The notes beneath the pieces are model-generated. The model was not told the DNA's origin, did no database searches, and saw only the letters and a program-made list of their open reading frames with translations. A program made the position numbers and the translations under genes. From Minisyncoccia bacterium (GTDB taxonomy: Bacteria > Patescibacteriota > Minisyncoccia > Phycocordibacterales > UBA918), in assembly GCA_046293175.1 (NCBI GenBank), contig JBKBPM010000001.1, positions 102,891 through 166,890 on the forward strand: a DNA stretch of 64,000 bases, given 5' to 3'. Position 1 is the first letter of the stretch. Every line of letters starts with the position of its first letter. Below are positions 2,368-62,098 of this stretch, piece by piece.

Positions 2368-2456
2368 AATGTGGTCATATTACCATATAATAATGCAAAA
2401 GTCAATAAAACGAAAGTTACAAATTGTCAACCTAAGCACAAATGAAATTCAACATC

Positions 2457-2481
2457 TTCCCTAGGCCTTGCCTAGGGAAGA
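2457..2481. repeat. Palindromic repeat element (CTTCCCTAGG-ccttg-CCTAGGGAAG), one member of a family
   Basis: 10-bp perfect inverted repeat. The same core CCCTAGG/CAAGG/CCTAGGG recurs at 9925-9975 and 27437-27467. Confidence 0.5.
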
Positions 2482-2556
2482 TGCTACACGATGCAAAGGG
2501 GCACCCTAGGCAATAGTCGAAGACCGGTCCCGGGAGAGGATTTCTAACGGGGTTAA

Positions 2557-9622: not shown

Positions 9623-10052
9623 ATCTATGGGCGGCAGCCAGGGTGAGCGTCTCGCTGTGTTGCGGAGCCTCATTGTCGAACTCATCGTATTGCAATACGT
9701 CTCGTTCGCCAATTTCTCCGCGCTTGCGATACATCTCACCGCAACTGCCGAATTGGTTACTGTATTAATAATTAAACGAAAAATCGCCCGAGCGAACATA
9801 TGACAGGATTCATATGTTCGCTCGGGCGTTCTTTTGGTAAAGTCGCGGTTCCACCGAGCTTTAGTAAGGGGTCAGACCCCTTACTTTCTTTTAGTACAGA
9901 TTAGGGAGAGGTTTCTCCACGTCTCCCTAGGCAAGGCCTCGGGACGTGTCCCGAGGCCTTGCCTAGGGAGACGTGACGTTGGTGGTTGGTAGCCACCACA
10001 ATCTCTGTGTTAGGTATCATCCTAGCGGATAGGGAGAAATTGGTCAACCATA
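9623..10052 (-). promoter_or_regulatory. Candidate T-box riboswitch leader of thrS: promoter, short stem I, antiterminator/terminator
   Basis: Minus-strand promoter TTGACC-17-TAGGAT (10047-10019). AGAGA box, then a hairpin whose loop reads cuACCAa (Thr codon ACC followed by A). T-box-like sequence AAAGCUCGGUGGAACCGCG with the canonical 7-nt bulge UGGAACC. Helix A1 (GCUCGG/CCGAGC) and helix A2 (GCG/CGC) compete with a 19-bp terminator hairpin (9785-9828) that is followed by a U tract. About 160 nt then run to the ATG. Confidence 0.6.
9925..9975. repeat. Long palindromic repeat element: 24-bp stem, an extended member of the CCCTAGGCAAGGCC family
   Basis: tctccctaggcaaggcctcgggac-gtg-tcccgaggccttgcctagggaga is a perfect inverted repeat. 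Confidence 0.55.
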
Positions 10053-22951: not shown

Positions 22952-23000
22952 TGGCCGGCAGTCCATAATTGTTCCGCAAACAATTATGGACTGCCGGCCT
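22952..23000. terminator. Strong bidirectional terminator-like hairpin with a 20-bp stem
   Basis: ggccggcagtccataattgtt-ccgcaa-aacaattatggactgccggcc. Confidence 0.6.
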
Positions 23001-26710: not shown

Positions 26711-27397
26711 ATGCAATTTCACGTTATCACTATTTTCCCGGAGGTCTGCGCAGCATACACGAGTGCGAGTGTGCTTGGTCGCGCCCAGAAGGCAGAGAAG
26801 GGTAAGGGGGCAAAGGTAAAGGGGAAGCAGATTGATATCTCGTACTATAATCCACGGGACTTTGCGACCAATAAACACAAGAAGGTCGATGAGCGACCGT
26901 ATGGTGGCGGACCCGGTATGGTGATGTTGGCCGAACCAATCCTCAAAGCCTGGGAGAAAGCCGTGGGGAAGAAGACCGCTAGTTTGAAGAAGGGGAAGGT
27001 GAAGACGCTCATTATGTCGCCACGCGGGACCATGTTCACTAACGAACTGGCCAAACAGTGGGCAAGCAAGTACGACCACCTCGTCCTAATCTCTGGTCGC
27101 TACGAAGGGATTGATGCGCGGGTCAAAGAGATTCTTGAGGCCGAGGAAGTATCGGTTGGTGACTATGTCCTCACCGGTGGCGAACTACCCGCTCTCACCA
27201 TCATCGACTCAGTCTCACGACAGATTCCGGGTGTGCTCGGTACCTTTGAATCACTCGAAGATGAACGGTCAACCAGCGGTGTCACCTACACCCGTCCGGA
27301 GGTCCTCACCTACAAAAAGAAAAAGTACCCCGTGCCAGAGGTACTCCTCAACGGTAACCACGCTGAAATTGATAAGTGGCGTAGCGGTCTCAGCTAA
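26711..27397 (+). CDS. trmD: tRNA (guanine37-N1)-methyltransferase
   Basis: MQFHVITIFPE, the SPOUT knot region (ISGRYEGIDARV, LTGGELPAL) and SIGDYVLTGG-like motifs. Confidence 0.9.
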   Translation: MQFHVITIFPEVCAAYTSASVLGRAQKAEKGKGAKVKGKQIDISYYNPRDFATNKHKKVDERPYGGGPGMVMLAEPILKAWEKAVGKKTASLKKGKVKTLIMSPRGTMFTNELAKQWASKYDHLVLISGRYEGIDARVKEILEAEEVSVGDYVLTGGELPALTIIDSVSRQIPGVLGTFESLEDERSTSGVTYTRPEVLTYKKKKYPVPEVLLNGNHAEIDKWRSGLS

Positions 27398-27545
27398 ACC
27401 AAAACCAAGGACATCCGATGTCCTTGGTTTTGGTTTAGTATTCTCCCTAGGCAAGGCCTAGGGAGAATACTTCATTTAAATGAAGTATTCGATTTTATAA
27501 AAATGAAGAACCCCCGAATCGCTCCGGGGAGCCTTCGGGGGTTAT
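27397..27545. repeat. Cluster of four consecutive perfect hairpins/palindromes
   Basis: H1 27397-27436: aaaccaaaaccaaggacatc-cg-atgtccttggttttggttt. H2 27437-27467: REP-like ttctccctagg-caagg-cctagggagaa. H3 27463-27484: atacttcatttaaatgaagtat, the same family as the palindromes around 61500-62080. H4 27508-27540: acccccgaa-tcgctccggggagcc-ttcgggggt. Confidence 0.6.
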
Positions 27546-27913
27546 GCTGCGTCATGGAGGCGCCCGCTGTCATCGCAGGGCAGCCAGCCATTCGAAGAAA
27601 GGTATGCCGAGATTTGCTCAGCCAACACTTCGGGCTCGACAATCAGCTTGGTCGCCGCGAGGTCGATCTGCTTGAACCTGACGAAGGGGAACTTGTCGGA
27701 CAAGTCCTCCTCGACCATGTCCATTTCGAGAGCGAGACCGTGGCAGTCGACGTCGCAGGGCAGTCAACACAACGTAAGTATATGGCCCACCTTGGGCTCG
27801 CGAATGAAACTTCCGCGAGCGTTCACGGTGTACACCGTGTTGTCTTCGCTGGTGGGAATGGTGACGAAAAGCACGGATTCGTAGTTCATGTCATACTCCA
27901 TGCCTGGATTTAA
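27503..27913 (-). pseudogene. GC-rich segment carrying a disrupted minus-strand ORF; likely a degraded foreign gene
   Basis: Minus-strand pieces MEYDMNYESVLFVTIPTSEDNTVYTVNARGSFIREPKVGHI...stop (27901..27764) and MDMVEEDLSDKFPFVRF...SSNGWLPCDDSGRLHDAA (27724..27542) sit in different frames. Local GC about 57%. Confidence 0.3.
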
Positions 27914-27980
27914 CTCGTACTACTAAATCAAATTATTACCAAATTGTCATAGTATTATATAGCTTTCCAACATTAATAGC

Positions 27981-28009
27981 TTGCCAAAATCAGAGAAATC
28001 CGTATAATA
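27981..28009 (+). promoter_or_regulatory. Sigma70 promoter upstream of rpoB, with a 160-nt leader
   Basis: TTGCCA-17nt-TATAAT. The leader contains a small hairpin gcacg-gaca-cgtgc followed by TTTTT (28119-28141), a possible attenuator. Confidence 0.5.
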
Positions 28010-28172
28010 CCCCCACAAACGCAATCTCGGGTGAGTTCTGATTGAGAGATGTCGCGGAGGTAAATCACAGTCGTAATGACCATTTTACAAGTGCACCTCT
28101 AACATCCATATAAGTAGCACGGACACGTGCCGCTTTTTGTGTGTTTAAGATGCTAATAAGTTTAAAAACCTT

Positions 28173-35090: not shown

Positions 35091-35238
35091 TCGGCTTCCA
35101 AAACGCACGCATCTGCTTTGTTGGTCGGCAAAAATATTGTTCAATGTGCAATCAGCACACCTCACAATATTTTCCACCGCCCGCCTCGCATCTCCATACG
35201 TTTTGAAACCCTCCGGTAGAGGTAACTGATACAACAAA

Positions 35239-35272
35239 AGCCGGCCCCTTCGGGGCCGGCTTTTGTTGTATT
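35239..35272 (+). terminator. Rho-independent terminator after rpoC
   Basis: aaaagccggccccttcggggccggcttttgttg. Confidence 0.8.
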
Positions 35273-61475: not shown

Positions 61476-61482
61476 TTACAAG

Positions 61483-61516
61483 ATAAAATACTCCATTTAA
61501 ATGGAGTATTTTATCG
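61483..61516. promoter_or_regulatory. 34-bp perfect palindrome overlapping the 3' end of the TrpR-like gene
   Basis: gataaaATACTCCATTTAAATGGAGTATtttatc. Confidence 0.6.
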
Positions 61517-61933
61517 CTTCCGTTTTGCTTTAATAATATAGTTTCGGCGTGGCATGATGCCACCCACAGTGAGAATTGAGTCGATTAATATGAGCAAATC
61601 AGTGTAGTTCTTTTTGCTTTTAGTTAATGATTCGATGATGTTAGAAAACTCTTTTCTCTCATACCTCTCAAATAATTTTGCTACGGTAGTTTCGCTCACT
61701 TTGAGCCGCTGTGCAATTGAGTAGCAAGATCTCCCTTCATTGAGCATTAATACAATTGCTAATCTTTTAGCGAAGATTTCTTTTTCTTCATACCCAAATA
61801 GTTCTTCATAAAACATTCGCGCTTGATTTCCATTTAACTTTCCAAGTACATCAGTAAATTGCGAGATAAGATGTTCGCGTTGAACCTCTGAGAGACGATC
61901 TTTGGATAACCTCATACCAACAATATACTCCAT
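61511..61933 (-). CDS. TrpR-family (YerC/YecD-like) helix-turn-helix protein
   Basis: 140 aa. ...LMLNEGRSCYSIAQRLKVSETTVAKL... is a TrpR/YerC-type HTH. The first ATG lies inside a palindrome; the real start may be the Met at 61915 (MRLSKDRL). Confidence 0.7.
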   Translation of the reverse strand: MEYIVGMRLSKDRLSEVQREHLISQFTDVLGKLNGNQARMFYEELFGYEEKEIFAKRLAIVLMLNEGRSCYSIAQRLKVSETTVAKLFERYERKEFSNIIESLTKSKKNYTDLLILIDSILTVGGIMPRRNYIIKAKRKR

Positions 61934-61953
61934 TTAAATGGAGTATATTGTTG
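61916..61953. promoter_or_regulatory. 38-bp perfect palindrome overlapping the start codon of the TrpR-like gene
   Basis: ccaacaatATACTCCATTTAAATGGAGTATattgttgg. Confidence 0.6.
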
Positions 61954-62036
61954 GTAGGCGTGGATTAGTTAATCTACCCATAACAGTTTTGGCTGCACAC
62001 CTTATTAAATTTTTATTTGTGAAATTATTAATACTG

Positions 62037-62080
62037 ATACTCCCCAATACTCCATTTAAATGGAGTATTGGGGAGTATCA
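62037..62080. promoter_or_regulatory. 44-bp perfect palindrome with duplicated ATACTCC half-sites
   Basis: GATACTCCccaATACTCCATTTAAATGGAGTATtggGGAGTATC. Lies between truB (3' end) and the TrpR-like gene. Confidence 0.6.
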
Positions 62081-62098
62081 AATAGTATTTGCTTGGGG

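What the first reader, a model, noticed from the sequence alone, without database searches (positions are those of the whole stretch)
61478..62085. TrpR/YerC-family gene bracketed by three long perfect palindromes (34, 38, 44 bp) sharing an ATACTCCATTTAAATGGAGTAT core
Three perfect palindromes sit at 61483-61516 (over the stop codon), 61916-61953 (over the start codon) and 62037-62080 (about 110 bp upstream, with duplicated ATACTCC half-sites on each arm). All share the same 22-bp core, and perfect palindromes of this length are statistically very unlikely. A fourth near-identical copy (atacttcatttaaatgaagtat) lies at 27463-27484. Two readings are possible. One: these are high-affinity operator sites for the encoded HTH protein, giving autoregulation with cooperative binding and DNA looping. 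Two: they are terminal or structural repeats of a small palindrome-associated element. YerC/YecD-type proteins have no established function.
Basis: seen in the sequence. Interest (0 to 1): 0.7.

Follow-up and report, generated by a model that had tools for sequence, protein, structure and literature searches.

The report
Repressor gene bracketed by its palindromes
A small Trp-repressor-like DNA-binding gene of a tiny-genome (CPR/Saccharibacteria) bacterium is flanked upstream and downstream by copies of one long perfect palindrome, and this bracketing recurs across the whole uncharacterised protein family, so the palindromes are most likely the protein's own binding sites.

Summary
Three perfect palindromes (34, 42 and 46 bp) share the 22-mer ATACTCCATTTAAATGGAGTAT around a 134-aa helix-turn-helix gene, and a symmetric variant lies at 27467.

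The protein has a TrpR fold but fails the NCBIfam cut-offs for TrpR and YerC/YecD. It belongs to a large CPR-wide family of about 135 aa with an invariant C-terminal ILTVGGIMP motif.

In 12 of 13 family loci tested, from four or more genomic contexts, the gene's upstream and downstream flanks share an exact word of 15-26 nt. Only 5 of 243 control genes do. The palindrome sequence differs between lineages.

In six Saccharibacteria-type lineages the start-proximal palindrome centre lies exactly 20.5 nt before the ATG. This places a TANNNT hexamer at -12..-7.

Best reading: these are cognate autoregulatory operators, with P2 over the promoter, P3 auxiliary, and P1 a 3' operator that also acts as a bidirectional terminator.

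Three observations complicate this:
- The 22-mer also occurs as low-copy orphans, mostly between convergent unrelated housekeeping genes and once inside pheT.
- Palindromy extends beyond the core with true covariation.
- Two relatives have precise empty sites that keep one palindrome.

I found no transposase, target duplication or viral link. Verdict: a new variant of a known kind, of moderate interest.

The parts
61482..61515 (.). P1: 34-bp perfect palindrome (core 61488-61509). It overlaps the HTH gene's stop codon and lies 7 nt after the GH15 stop, between convergent genes.
   Evidence: As RNA it folds to -19.1 kcal/mol on either strand. The terminator scan flags it on both strands. An orthologous copy is present in L004, L010, L023, L035 and others.
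61511..61915 (-). TrpR-fold HTH gene, 134 aa from the conserved Met (the ORF caller's 140-aa version starts at 61933). It carries the invariant C-terminal motif ILTVGGIMP.
   Evidence: The family has 922 representatives at E<=1e-10 and 1504 hits. GC is 36.8% against 48.4% for the window.
61915..61956 (.). P2: 42-bp perfect palindrome (core 61925-61946) abutting the conserved ATG. Proposed primary operator overlapping the promoter.
   Evidence: The centre-to-ATG distance is 20.5 nt in six lineages. The arm difference between the window (TACCAACAAT/ATTGTTGGTA) and L004 (GTCAACAAT/ATTGTTGAC) is compensatory.
61922..61927 (-). TATATT hexamer at -12..-7 relative to the A of the ATG. Candidate -10 box of a leaderless promoter, inside the gene-proximal arm of P2.
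   Evidence: Read from the sequence. The equivalent hexamers are TATATT, TATTGT, TAGTCT, TATCAT and TATTAT in L004, L010, L015, L014 and L066. The assignment is an inference; the consensus scan found no full sigma-70 site here.
62035..62080 (.). P3: 46-bp perfect palindrome (core 62047-62068) with a second ATACTCC half-site on each arm, offset by 10 bp. It lies 19 nt downstream of the truB stop. Proposed auxiliary operator and/or truB terminator.
   Evidence: RNA fold is -37.4 kcal/mol. It is retained, with symmetric 2-nt arm deletions, in the empty-site relative L009. It is absent in L010.
27465..27490 (.). Orphan copy (core 27467-27488, ATACTTC...GAAGTAT) between trmD and rpoB, next to two other hairpins.
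   Evidence: Orthologous copies in L006, L029 and L031 read TCC/GGA, and L032 reads TTC/GAA. Every version is symmetric.

Best explanation
The three palindromes are most likely the cognate binding sites of the TrpR-fold protein encoded between them, and together they form an autoregulatory unit.

Proposed roles:
- P2 sits directly on the gene's promoter. Its gene-proximal arm supplies a TATATT hexamer at -12..-7 of a probably leaderless transcript that starts at the ATG. A bound dimer would therefore shut the gene off.
- P3 is an auxiliary upstream site with tandem half-sites one helical turn apart, for cooperative binding. It is also the hairpin at the end of truB.
- P1 sits at the stop codon. 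It is a second-order operator that can pair with P2 or P3 (a loop of about 440-560 bp) or act as a roadblock. As a transcribed hairpin flanked by A- and T-runs it also terminates both the HTH gene and the convergent GH15 gene.

Status of each step:
- Shown: the palindromes; the TrpR fold; family-wide bracketing by palindromes that differ between lineages; the fixed geometry at the start codon.
- Inferred: protein binding, repression, leaderless start, looping or roadblock.

Because the flanking copies are direct repeats of at least 22 bp, the gene can be lost precisely by recombination between them, as seen in two relatives.

The same 22-mer at other loci probably represents further binding sites of this protein or a paralogue. 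Their role is not classical promoter control.
For: 1. Fold. The AlphaFold model (pLDDT 76) matches TrpR-operator complexes 1trr and 1tro and TrpR-like 3g1c, 3frw and 3kor (probability about 1, TM 0.6-0.77 on the target). Pfam Trp_repressor is just above its cut-off.

2. Bracketing.
- In 12 of 13 family loci the upstream and downstream flanks share an exact word of 15-26 nt, against 5 of 243 control genes. Two of those five controls are themselves family-linked.
- Within each 5-14 kb locus the lineage-specific palindrome occurs almost only around the gene.

3. The motif changes with lineage while the architecture stays the same:
- ATACTYCATTTAAATGRAGTAT
- TACCCCCATTTAAATGGGGGTA
- ATACCCCAATCGATTGGGGTAT
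- TAGTCCAGTTAACTGGACTA
- GCTACAATATACTGTAGC
- TACTACGATATATCGTAGTA
- TGGTACAATATATTGTACCA
- CTTATCATATATGATAAG

4. Geometry. The palindrome centre is 20.5 nt from the ATG, with TANNNT at -12..-7, in six lineages of 54-100% protein identity.

5. P3 carries tandem half-sites at a 10-bp offset. From established knowledge, TrpR binds tandemly to GNACT half-sites (PDB 1TRR), and the outer ATACT/AGTAT resembles that half-site.

6. The 22-mer is fully conserved inside pheT across orthologues whose flanks are 68% identical, where a terminator would be harmful.

7. P1 is scored as a terminator on both strands and folds to -19.1 kcal/mol.
Against: - No binding, transcript-start or expression data exist, and the consensus promoter scan found no full sigma-70 site at P2.
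- Positions beyond the 22-mer covary in all four Watson-Crick types (columns 8-10). Mean perfect extension is 3.3 nt against 0.98 in controls. The internal Y/R pair is symmetric in 27 of 29 contexts even when both variants occur in one genome. A dimeric protein reading double-stranded DNA does not require this. It points to hairpin or cruciform pairing, or to a copying process that symmetrises the arms.
- Orphan copies lie mostly between convergent genes, where there is no promoter (about 12 convergent contexts against 1 divergent). Their neighbours are functionally unrelated housekeeping genes, so there is no coherent regulon.
- One distant family member (L058, 31-36% identity) is bracketed by the same exact 22-mer. 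L003 carries an ATACTCC copy beside a gene bracketed by a different palindrome. Protein-motif co-variation is therefore not strict.
- The P1-P2 and P2-P3 spacings are not helically phased across lineages (computed).
Confidence: 0.6

Rival explanations
1. REP/RAYT-like arrangement. The palindromes are a low-copy, self-propagating or host-recruited hairpin element dispersed at gene 3' ends. The bracketed gene is its dedicated partner protein rather than a transcription factor, and the gene plus one palindrome behaves as a cassette.
For: - The apparently single-copy gene is flanked by its own palindromes, with further copies in extragenic 3' and convergent positions.
- Arm covariation shows that intrastrand pairing matters.
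- Two independent precise empty sites exist, L009 and L060.
- The gene sits in at least four different genomic contexts.
- Gene GC is 3-13 points below the host in every lineage.
- The yidC 3' end plus palindrome is duplicated around an inserted AbiEii module in L041.
Against: - The protein is all-helical TrpR-fold with no HUH, Tyr or Ser recombinase domain.
- There is no target-site duplication.
- Copy number is low: 2 exact copies in a 594-kb contig and 4 in this 64-kb window.
- There are no viral copies.
- The tkt-HTH-rpe synteny is conserved at 35-45% protein identity.
- The pheT copy replaced sequence without any length change in L025.
- The empty sites are equally explained by deletion between direct repeats.
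Confidence: 0.15
2. The palindromes are simply intrinsic (bidirectional) transcription terminators or RNA 3'-end hairpins of a lineage that favours long perfect stems. Their association with the HTH gene is incidental.
For: - P1 and P3 are flagged as terminator-like, and the hairpins are stable (-12.5 to -37 kcal/mol).
- Orphans lie at 3' ends, often 1-7 nt after a stop codon and with AAA/TTT flanks.
- Watson-Crick covariation of the arms is as expected if both strands are transcribed.
- The genome has 23 perfect hairpins in 64 kb.
Against: - Terminator stems need no conserved sequence, yet 22 nt are identical across about 30 unrelated contexts and several genomes.
- Most orphans already sit next to a canonical GC-rich terminator.
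- One copy is conserved inside the essential pheT gene.
- P2 lies immediately 5' of a start codon.
- Every family member across CPR carries matching copies upstream and downstream, while neighbouring genes do not.
Confidence: 0.1
3. The palindromes are sites for a host site-specific recombinase (Xer/dif-module-like or integron-attC-like), and the HTH gene is a cassette that integrates and excises at them.
For: - Direct repeats flank the gene. Their orientation is readable where the centre is asymmetric, as in L019, L021 and L063.
- L063 has a direct repeat of about 50 nt that includes the gene's last codons.
- The empty sites retain exactly one copy, with hybrid flanks.
- Orphan copies could serve as landing sites.
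Against: - No integrase or recombinase gene lies nearby in any locus.
- The sites are perfectly symmetric including the centre, so recombination would have no direction.
- No inverted or relocated copy of the cassette was seen among closely related genomes.
- The family-wide fixed distance to the start codon is a promoter-type constraint, not a recombination one.
Confidence: 0.07

Closest known systems
E. coli TrpR and its operators (trpO, aroH, trpR autoregulation; PDB 1TRO, 1TRR)
   Same: - Same fold.
- Small dimeric HTH repressor type.
- Palindromic operators with an outer NTACT/AGTAN-like half-site (from established knowledge of the GNACT half-site).
- Tandem half-sites as in P3.
- An operator overlapping the gene's own promoter.
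   Different: - About 35 extra C-terminal residues with the invariant ILTVGGIMP motif.
- Fails TIGR01321.
- The core is 22 bp rather than 18 bp, with different half-site spacing.
- An obligatory extra copy lies at the stop codon.
- Sites occur between convergent genes and inside pheT.
- The ligand is unknown.
YerC/YecD TrpR-related proteins (TIGR02531)
   Same: Distant sequence similarity over the HTH core (residues 26-86). Some sources name family members 'YerC'.
   Different: - Score is 17.5 bits against a cut-off of 42.2, so it is not a member.
- It is longer (134 against about 100 aa) and has a distinct C-terminal motif.
REP elements and their RAYT genes (REPINs)
   Same: - A gene flanked by its cognate palindromes.
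- Other copies in extragenic 3' and convergent positions.
- The palindrome type changes with the gene lineage.
- Hairpin covariation.
   Different: - RAYTs are HUH Y1 transposases, whereas this protein is a TrpR-fold HTH.
- Copy number is tens to hundreds of times lower.
- The palindromes are perfect and have no spacer.
- A real Y1_Tnp gene flanked by a 23-nt repeat in L021 served as an internal contrast.
Repressors with auxiliary operators that form loops (lac O1/O2/O3, gal OE/OI, deo)
   Same: A primary operator at the promoter, plus auxiliary copies upstream and a few hundred bp downstream.
   Different: Here the downstream copy lies beyond the stop codon, so the loop would enclose the regulator's own whole gene. 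That copy also doubles as a terminator hairpin. Looping is inferred, not shown.
parS/ParB-type or matS/MatP-type chromosomal site systems
   Same: A few highly conserved palindromic sites per genome, one next to the protein's own gene, some inside coding genes.
   Different: - The protein fold is unrelated.
- The motif varies between lineages.
- No clustering near an origin or terminus could be tested. GC skew is monotonic across the window.

Membership tests
Trp repressor superfamily (Pfam PF01371 / TrpR fold) | Sequence match to the Trp_repressor profile above the gathering score | tested here: met
   28.1 bits against a cut-off of 27, residues 29-85. This is marginal. Precomputed PF01371 hits exist on most homologues.
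Trp repressor superfamily (Pfam PF01371 / TrpR fold) | All-helical TrpR-type fold with a central helix-turn-helix | tested here: met
   The model has 7 helices and pLDDT 76. Top Foldseek PDB matches are 1trr_A, 1tro_A, 3g1c, 3frw and 3kor, with probability 0.97-1.0. E-values are weak (0.07-0.2).
TrpR proper (NCBIfam TIGR01321) | Equivalog score at or above the cut-off | tested here: not met
   14.5 bits against 67.25.
TrpR proper (NCBIfam TIGR01321) | L-tryptophan corepressor pocket; control of trp/aro genes | not tested
   Ligand residues were not compared. No trp genes are near any locus.
YerC/YecD (NCBIfam TIGR02531) | Score at or above the cut-off | tested here: not met
   17.5 bits against 42.2.
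Autoregulated repressor-operator pair | Cognate palindromic site overlapping the gene's own promoter, changing with the regulator's lineage | tested here: met
   The start-proximal copy is present in all 13 loci read. The motif differs by lineage, and the centre-to-ATG distance is fixed. The promoter itself is inferred.
Autoregulated repressor-operator pair | Protein binds the site and represses transcription | not testable with these tools
   Needs EMSA or footprinting and reporter or transcript assays.
REP/RAYT (REPIN) systems | Flanked gene encodes an HUH Y1 (IS200-like) transposase | tested here: not met
   No PF01797 or any catalytic domain; HTH families only. The fold is TrpR.
REP/RAYT (REPIN) systems | Tens to hundreds of dispersed extragenic copies per genome | tested here: not met
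   - 4 copies in this 64-kb window, 3 of them at the gene.
- 2 exact copies in a 594-kb contig.
- 1-5 per MAG.
Transposable element / MITE | Target-site duplication and terminal inverted repeats around an insertion | tested here: not met
   Flanking direct repeats are no more frequent than in controls, apart from one 10-nt case in L005.
Intrinsic (rho-independent) terminator | Stable stem-loop followed by a T-run | tested here: inconclusive
   P1 passes on both strands and P3 on the + strand only, not on the truB-sense strand. P2 does not pass. The hairpins are stable, but the stems are AT-rich and the pheT copy is intragenic.
Xer/dif-type or integron attC recombination site | Nearby or dedicated tyrosine recombinase; asymmetric central region giving direction | tested here: not met
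   No recombinase gene in any locus table. The sites are perfectly symmetric including the centre.

The most novel reading that the evidence does not exclude
The TrpR-fold family and its palindromes form a CPR-wide system that is not ordinary promoter control. In this reading a sequence-specific protein marks hairpin-forming sites at the boundaries of convergent genes, and around its own gene, to enforce bidirectional termination or insulation in very compact genomes. Alternatively, it is a REPIN/RAYT-like partnership built on an HTH protein instead of a transposase. The arm covariation, the convergent-gene bias of orphan sites and the precise loss of the gene between its repeats would all follow from either version.
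Probability: 0.2. Interest if true: 0.8.

Novelty: new variant of a known kind. Interest (0 to 1): 0.55.

Why it matters
CPR/Patescibacteria have very few recognisable regulators, and almost nothing is known about how they control transcription.

This work gives a directly testable protein-DNA pair: a 134-aa protein and a 22-bp site. It applies to a family with more than 900 clusters at 50% identity. Each lineage has its own predicted motif, and there is a predicted leaderless promoter geometry.

The gene-bracketing layout (operator, gene, operator-terminator) is unusual for bacterial repressors, as are the conserved copies between convergent housekeeping genes and inside pheT. They could reveal how minimal genomes insulate neighbouring transcription units.

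The layout also explains why this gene drops out cleanly in some relatives, and why assemblies may break at it.

Tried and rejected
- Rfam and tRNA scans of the whole window found nothing.
- Replication-terminus (Tus/RTP-like) idea: GC skew is monotonic across the window, with no switch near 61-62 kb. Dropped.
- Phage or plasmid origin: no family member and no 22-mer in the viral contigs.
- Transposon-type insertion: no target-site duplications.
- In-frame insertion of a mobile palindrome into pheT (as for Rickettsia RPEs): rejected. L025 shows no length change, and the region is a variable linker.
- Coherent regulon: the neighbours of orphan sites are unrelated housekeeping genes.
- Orthologues of orphan-site neighbours in the window, to find orphan presence/absence pairs: none present.
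- An apparent inverted cassette in L066: on inspection this was only a 12-nt chance similarity, and the orientation is the usual one.
- Literature searches returned nothing on this family or motif.

Full report

Yes. The region contains three spacer-less perfect palindromes:
- P1 at 61482-61515 (34 bp)
- P2 at 61915-61956 (42 bp)
- P3 at 62035-62080 (46 bp)

Each holds the exact 22-mer ATACTCCATTTAAATGGAGTAT, at 61488, 61925 and 62047. A symmetric variant, ATACTTCATTTAAATGAAGTAT, lies at 27467-27488. Shuffled sequence gives no matches. P3 repeats the ATACTCC half-site on each arm at a 10-bp offset.

Long perfect hairpins are common in this genome: 23 with arms of at least 9 nt in 64 kb, mostly GC-rich at gene ends. 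The anomaly is therefore the shared AT-rich core, not palindromy in itself.

**2. The gene**

The ORF at 61511-61933 (minus strand) lies between a GH15 glucoamylase gene (convergent) and a truB-like gene (co-directional). Alignment with homologues puts the real start at Met7, with its ATG at 61915. The protein is then 134 aa and P2 ends exactly on the A of the ATG.

- It scores just above the Pfam Trp_repressor cut-off (28.1 against 27).
- It fails NCBIfam TrpR and YerC/YecD badly.
- An AlphaFold model (pLDDT 76) is all-helical. Its best PDB matches are TrpR-operator complexes and TrpR-like structural-genomics proteins.

The family is large and CPR-wide. A profile search found 922 representatives at E<=1e-10 among 1.84 billion representative proteins, and 1504 hits were labelled Saccharibacteria, Paceibacteria, Nomurabacteria and similar. 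Nearly all are about 135 aa and carry an invariant C-terminal ILTVGGIMP motif that TrpR and YerC lack. I found no paper on the family or the motif.

**3. The bracketing is a family property**

I read the DNA around homologues of 31-94% identity, in several genomic contexts:
- truB-HTH-GH15
- TatD-HTH-MetRS
- transketolase-HTH-rpe/rpiB
- ThrRS-HTH-UDG
- others

In every case one or two copies of a long palindrome lie upstream and one lies at or just after the stop codon. The sequence differs by lineage:
- TACCCCCATTTAAATGGGGGTA
- ATACCCCAATCGATTGGGGTAT
- TAGTCCAGTTAACTGGACTA
- GCTACAATATACTGTAGC
- TACTACGATATATCGTAGTA
- TGGTACAATATATTGTACCA
- CTTATCATATATGATAAG

As a test, I measured the longest exact word shared by a gene's upstream and downstream flanks. 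It is at least 15 nt in 12 of 13 family loci, against 5 of 243 control genes. Two of those five controls are themselves linked to the family, and one is an IS200-type gene with its own repeats. Within each locus the lineage's palindrome is found almost only around the gene.

This is the main reason to conclude that the palindromes are the encoded protein's own sites.

**4. Promoter geometry**

In six Saccharibacteria-type lineages the centre of the start-proximal palindrome is exactly 20.5 nt from the A of the ATG. Positions -12..-7 read TATATT, TATATT, TATTGT, TAGTCT, TATCAT and TATTAT. The same offset from the palindrome centre gives TAGATT in the upstream copies of the Paceibacteria-type loci (read from the sequences).

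I infer a -10 element embedded in the operator arm and, in the window's lineage, a leaderless transcript. If instead the whole of P2 were transcribed, a -29.8 kcal/mol hairpin would bury the GGAG and abut the start codon. The consensus scan finds no full sigma-70 promoter here, so this step remains inference.

**5. What a plain operator model does not explain**

(a) Palindromy extends beyond the 22-mer with site-specific sequences.
- Across 29 independent contexts the mean perfect extension is 3.3 nt, against 0.98 when flanks are re-paired.
- On 52 distinct sites, the pairs at offsets 2-4 show all four Watson-Crick types. All covariation measures exceed 500 of 500 shuffles and every slid control.
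- The internal C/T position is matched by G/A on the other arm in 27 of 29 contexts. About 13 mixed cases would be expected if the arms were independent (my arithmetic). Both variants occur within single genomes.
- Orthologous sites differ by symmetric double changes, for example L041 ATAC...GTAT against L037 GTAC...GTAC, and the P2 arms of the window against L004.

So intrastrand pairing, or a process that copies one arm from the other, matters.

(b) A scan of metagenome and genome collections found the exact 22-mer in about 27 further contexts without the gene.
- These orphans are mostly between convergent genes or directly after stop codons, with only one divergent case.
- They usually sit beside a canonical GC-rich terminator.
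- Their neighbours are unrelated housekeeping genes: BipA, AsnRS, YidC, TopA, DnaK, IleRS, Adk, RecO, S7/Obg.

(c) One copy lies inside pheT, read as TPFKWS in a variable linker. It is identical in orthologues whose flanks are 68% identical, and it causes no length change in L025. A terminator there would be harmful, which argues for sequence-specific recognition.

**6. Presence/absence**

Two relatives have the truB-GH15 junction without the gene.
- L009 keeps one palindrome with P1's outer flank on one side and P2's outer flank on the other, plus a P3-like copy.
- L060 keeps a single palindrome, relative to the two-palindrome L010 type.

These are exactly the products expected from recombination between the flanking direct repeats. 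They do not by themselves prove mobility:
- there are no target-site duplications;
- there is no recombinase or transposase gene nearby;
- there are no viral copies;
- the tkt-HTH-rpe synteny is stable over deep divergence.

The gene is, however, consistently 3-13 GC points below its surroundings. I cannot explain this.

**7. Synthesis**

The best-supported mechanism is an autoregulatory unit of a TrpR-fold repressor.
- P2 is the operator on the promoter.
- P3 is an auxiliary, cooperative site.
- P1 is a 3' site that pairs with the upstream sites or blocks convergent transcription. As RNA it also terminates both converging genes.

The arm covariation fits these sites being transcribed hairpins as well. 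It also fits a lineage-wide tendency to perfect hairpins. The orphan sites are probably further binding sites whose role is not promoter repression.

I put about 0.6 on the cognate operator and autoregulation model. The rivals are a REP/RAYT-like partnership (0.15), plain terminators (0.1) and a recombination cassette (0.07).

**8. Novelty and interest**

The protein belongs to a known fold, and autoregulation by palindromic operators is ordinary. The following appear undescribed:
- the obligatory bracketing of the regulator's own gene;
- the fixed operator-to-start-codon geometry;
- covarying arms;
- conserved copies at convergent gene ends and inside pheT.

They concern a large family in a group of bacteria whose regulation is essentially unknown. 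I rate it a new variant of a known kind, with interest 0.55.

Noticed in passing
window 2453-2483, 9918-9975, 27437-27471: A second palindrome family sharing CCCTAGGCAAGGCCTAGGG. One copy has 28-nt perfect arms, and one directly abuts the orphan ATACTTC palindrome.
   Followed up: no
window, whole (e.g. 1260-1300, 9785-9828, 22953-22999, 27394-27438, 35229-35271): Very high density of long, mismatch-free hairpins at gene ends: 23 with arms of at least 9 nt, and arms up to 28 nt. This suggests unusually strong selection for perfect terminators, or a mutational process that produces them.
   Followed up: partly
window 27500-28170: About 670 bp between trmD and rpoB with no convincing ORF, no Pfam hit for the small ORFs and no Rfam match. 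It starts with a GC-rich hairpin.
   Followed up: partly
L024 2939-2960; L025 5493-5514; L048 755-776; L057 3620-3641: The exact 22-mer lies inside the pheT coding sequence and is read as TPFKWS in a variable linker. Related PheT proteins have TPINWR or TPANWS, or unrelated residues, at the same place.
   Followed up: partly
L041 10119-11525 (also L037, L047): The 3' end of yidC, together with its palindrome, is duplicated on either side of an inserted two-gene module that includes an AbiEii-type toxin. A third palindrome (TTC type) lies inside the insert.
   Followed up: partly
L001 3493-3715: Three different palindromes with the same ATACT...AGTAT ends but different centres (TTTAAA, GTTAAC, ATCGAT) lie within about 220 nt, between rpsG and obg.
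   Followed up: no
L021 129-857: A Y1_Tnp (IS200/RAYT-like) gene flanked by a 23-nt repeat (CGGACAAGGTTTAACCTTGTCAA), about 2 kb from the family member in that genome.
   Followed up: no
L064 1820-2476: The unannotated 139-aa gene lying divergent to the family member is itself bracketed by the same palindrome (TGGTACAATATATTGTACCA), with a third copy at 1820-1839.
   Followed up: no
window 61511-61915 and 11 homologous loci: The HTH gene is 3-13 GC points below its genomic surroundings in every lineage examined (36.8% against 48.4% in the window, GC3 36% against 48-50%).
   Followed up: partly
L005 668-712: A single orphan site is flanked by a 10-nt direct repeat (TTCCTACTTC), partly preserved in its orthologue L044. 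No other site shows this.
   Followed up: partly
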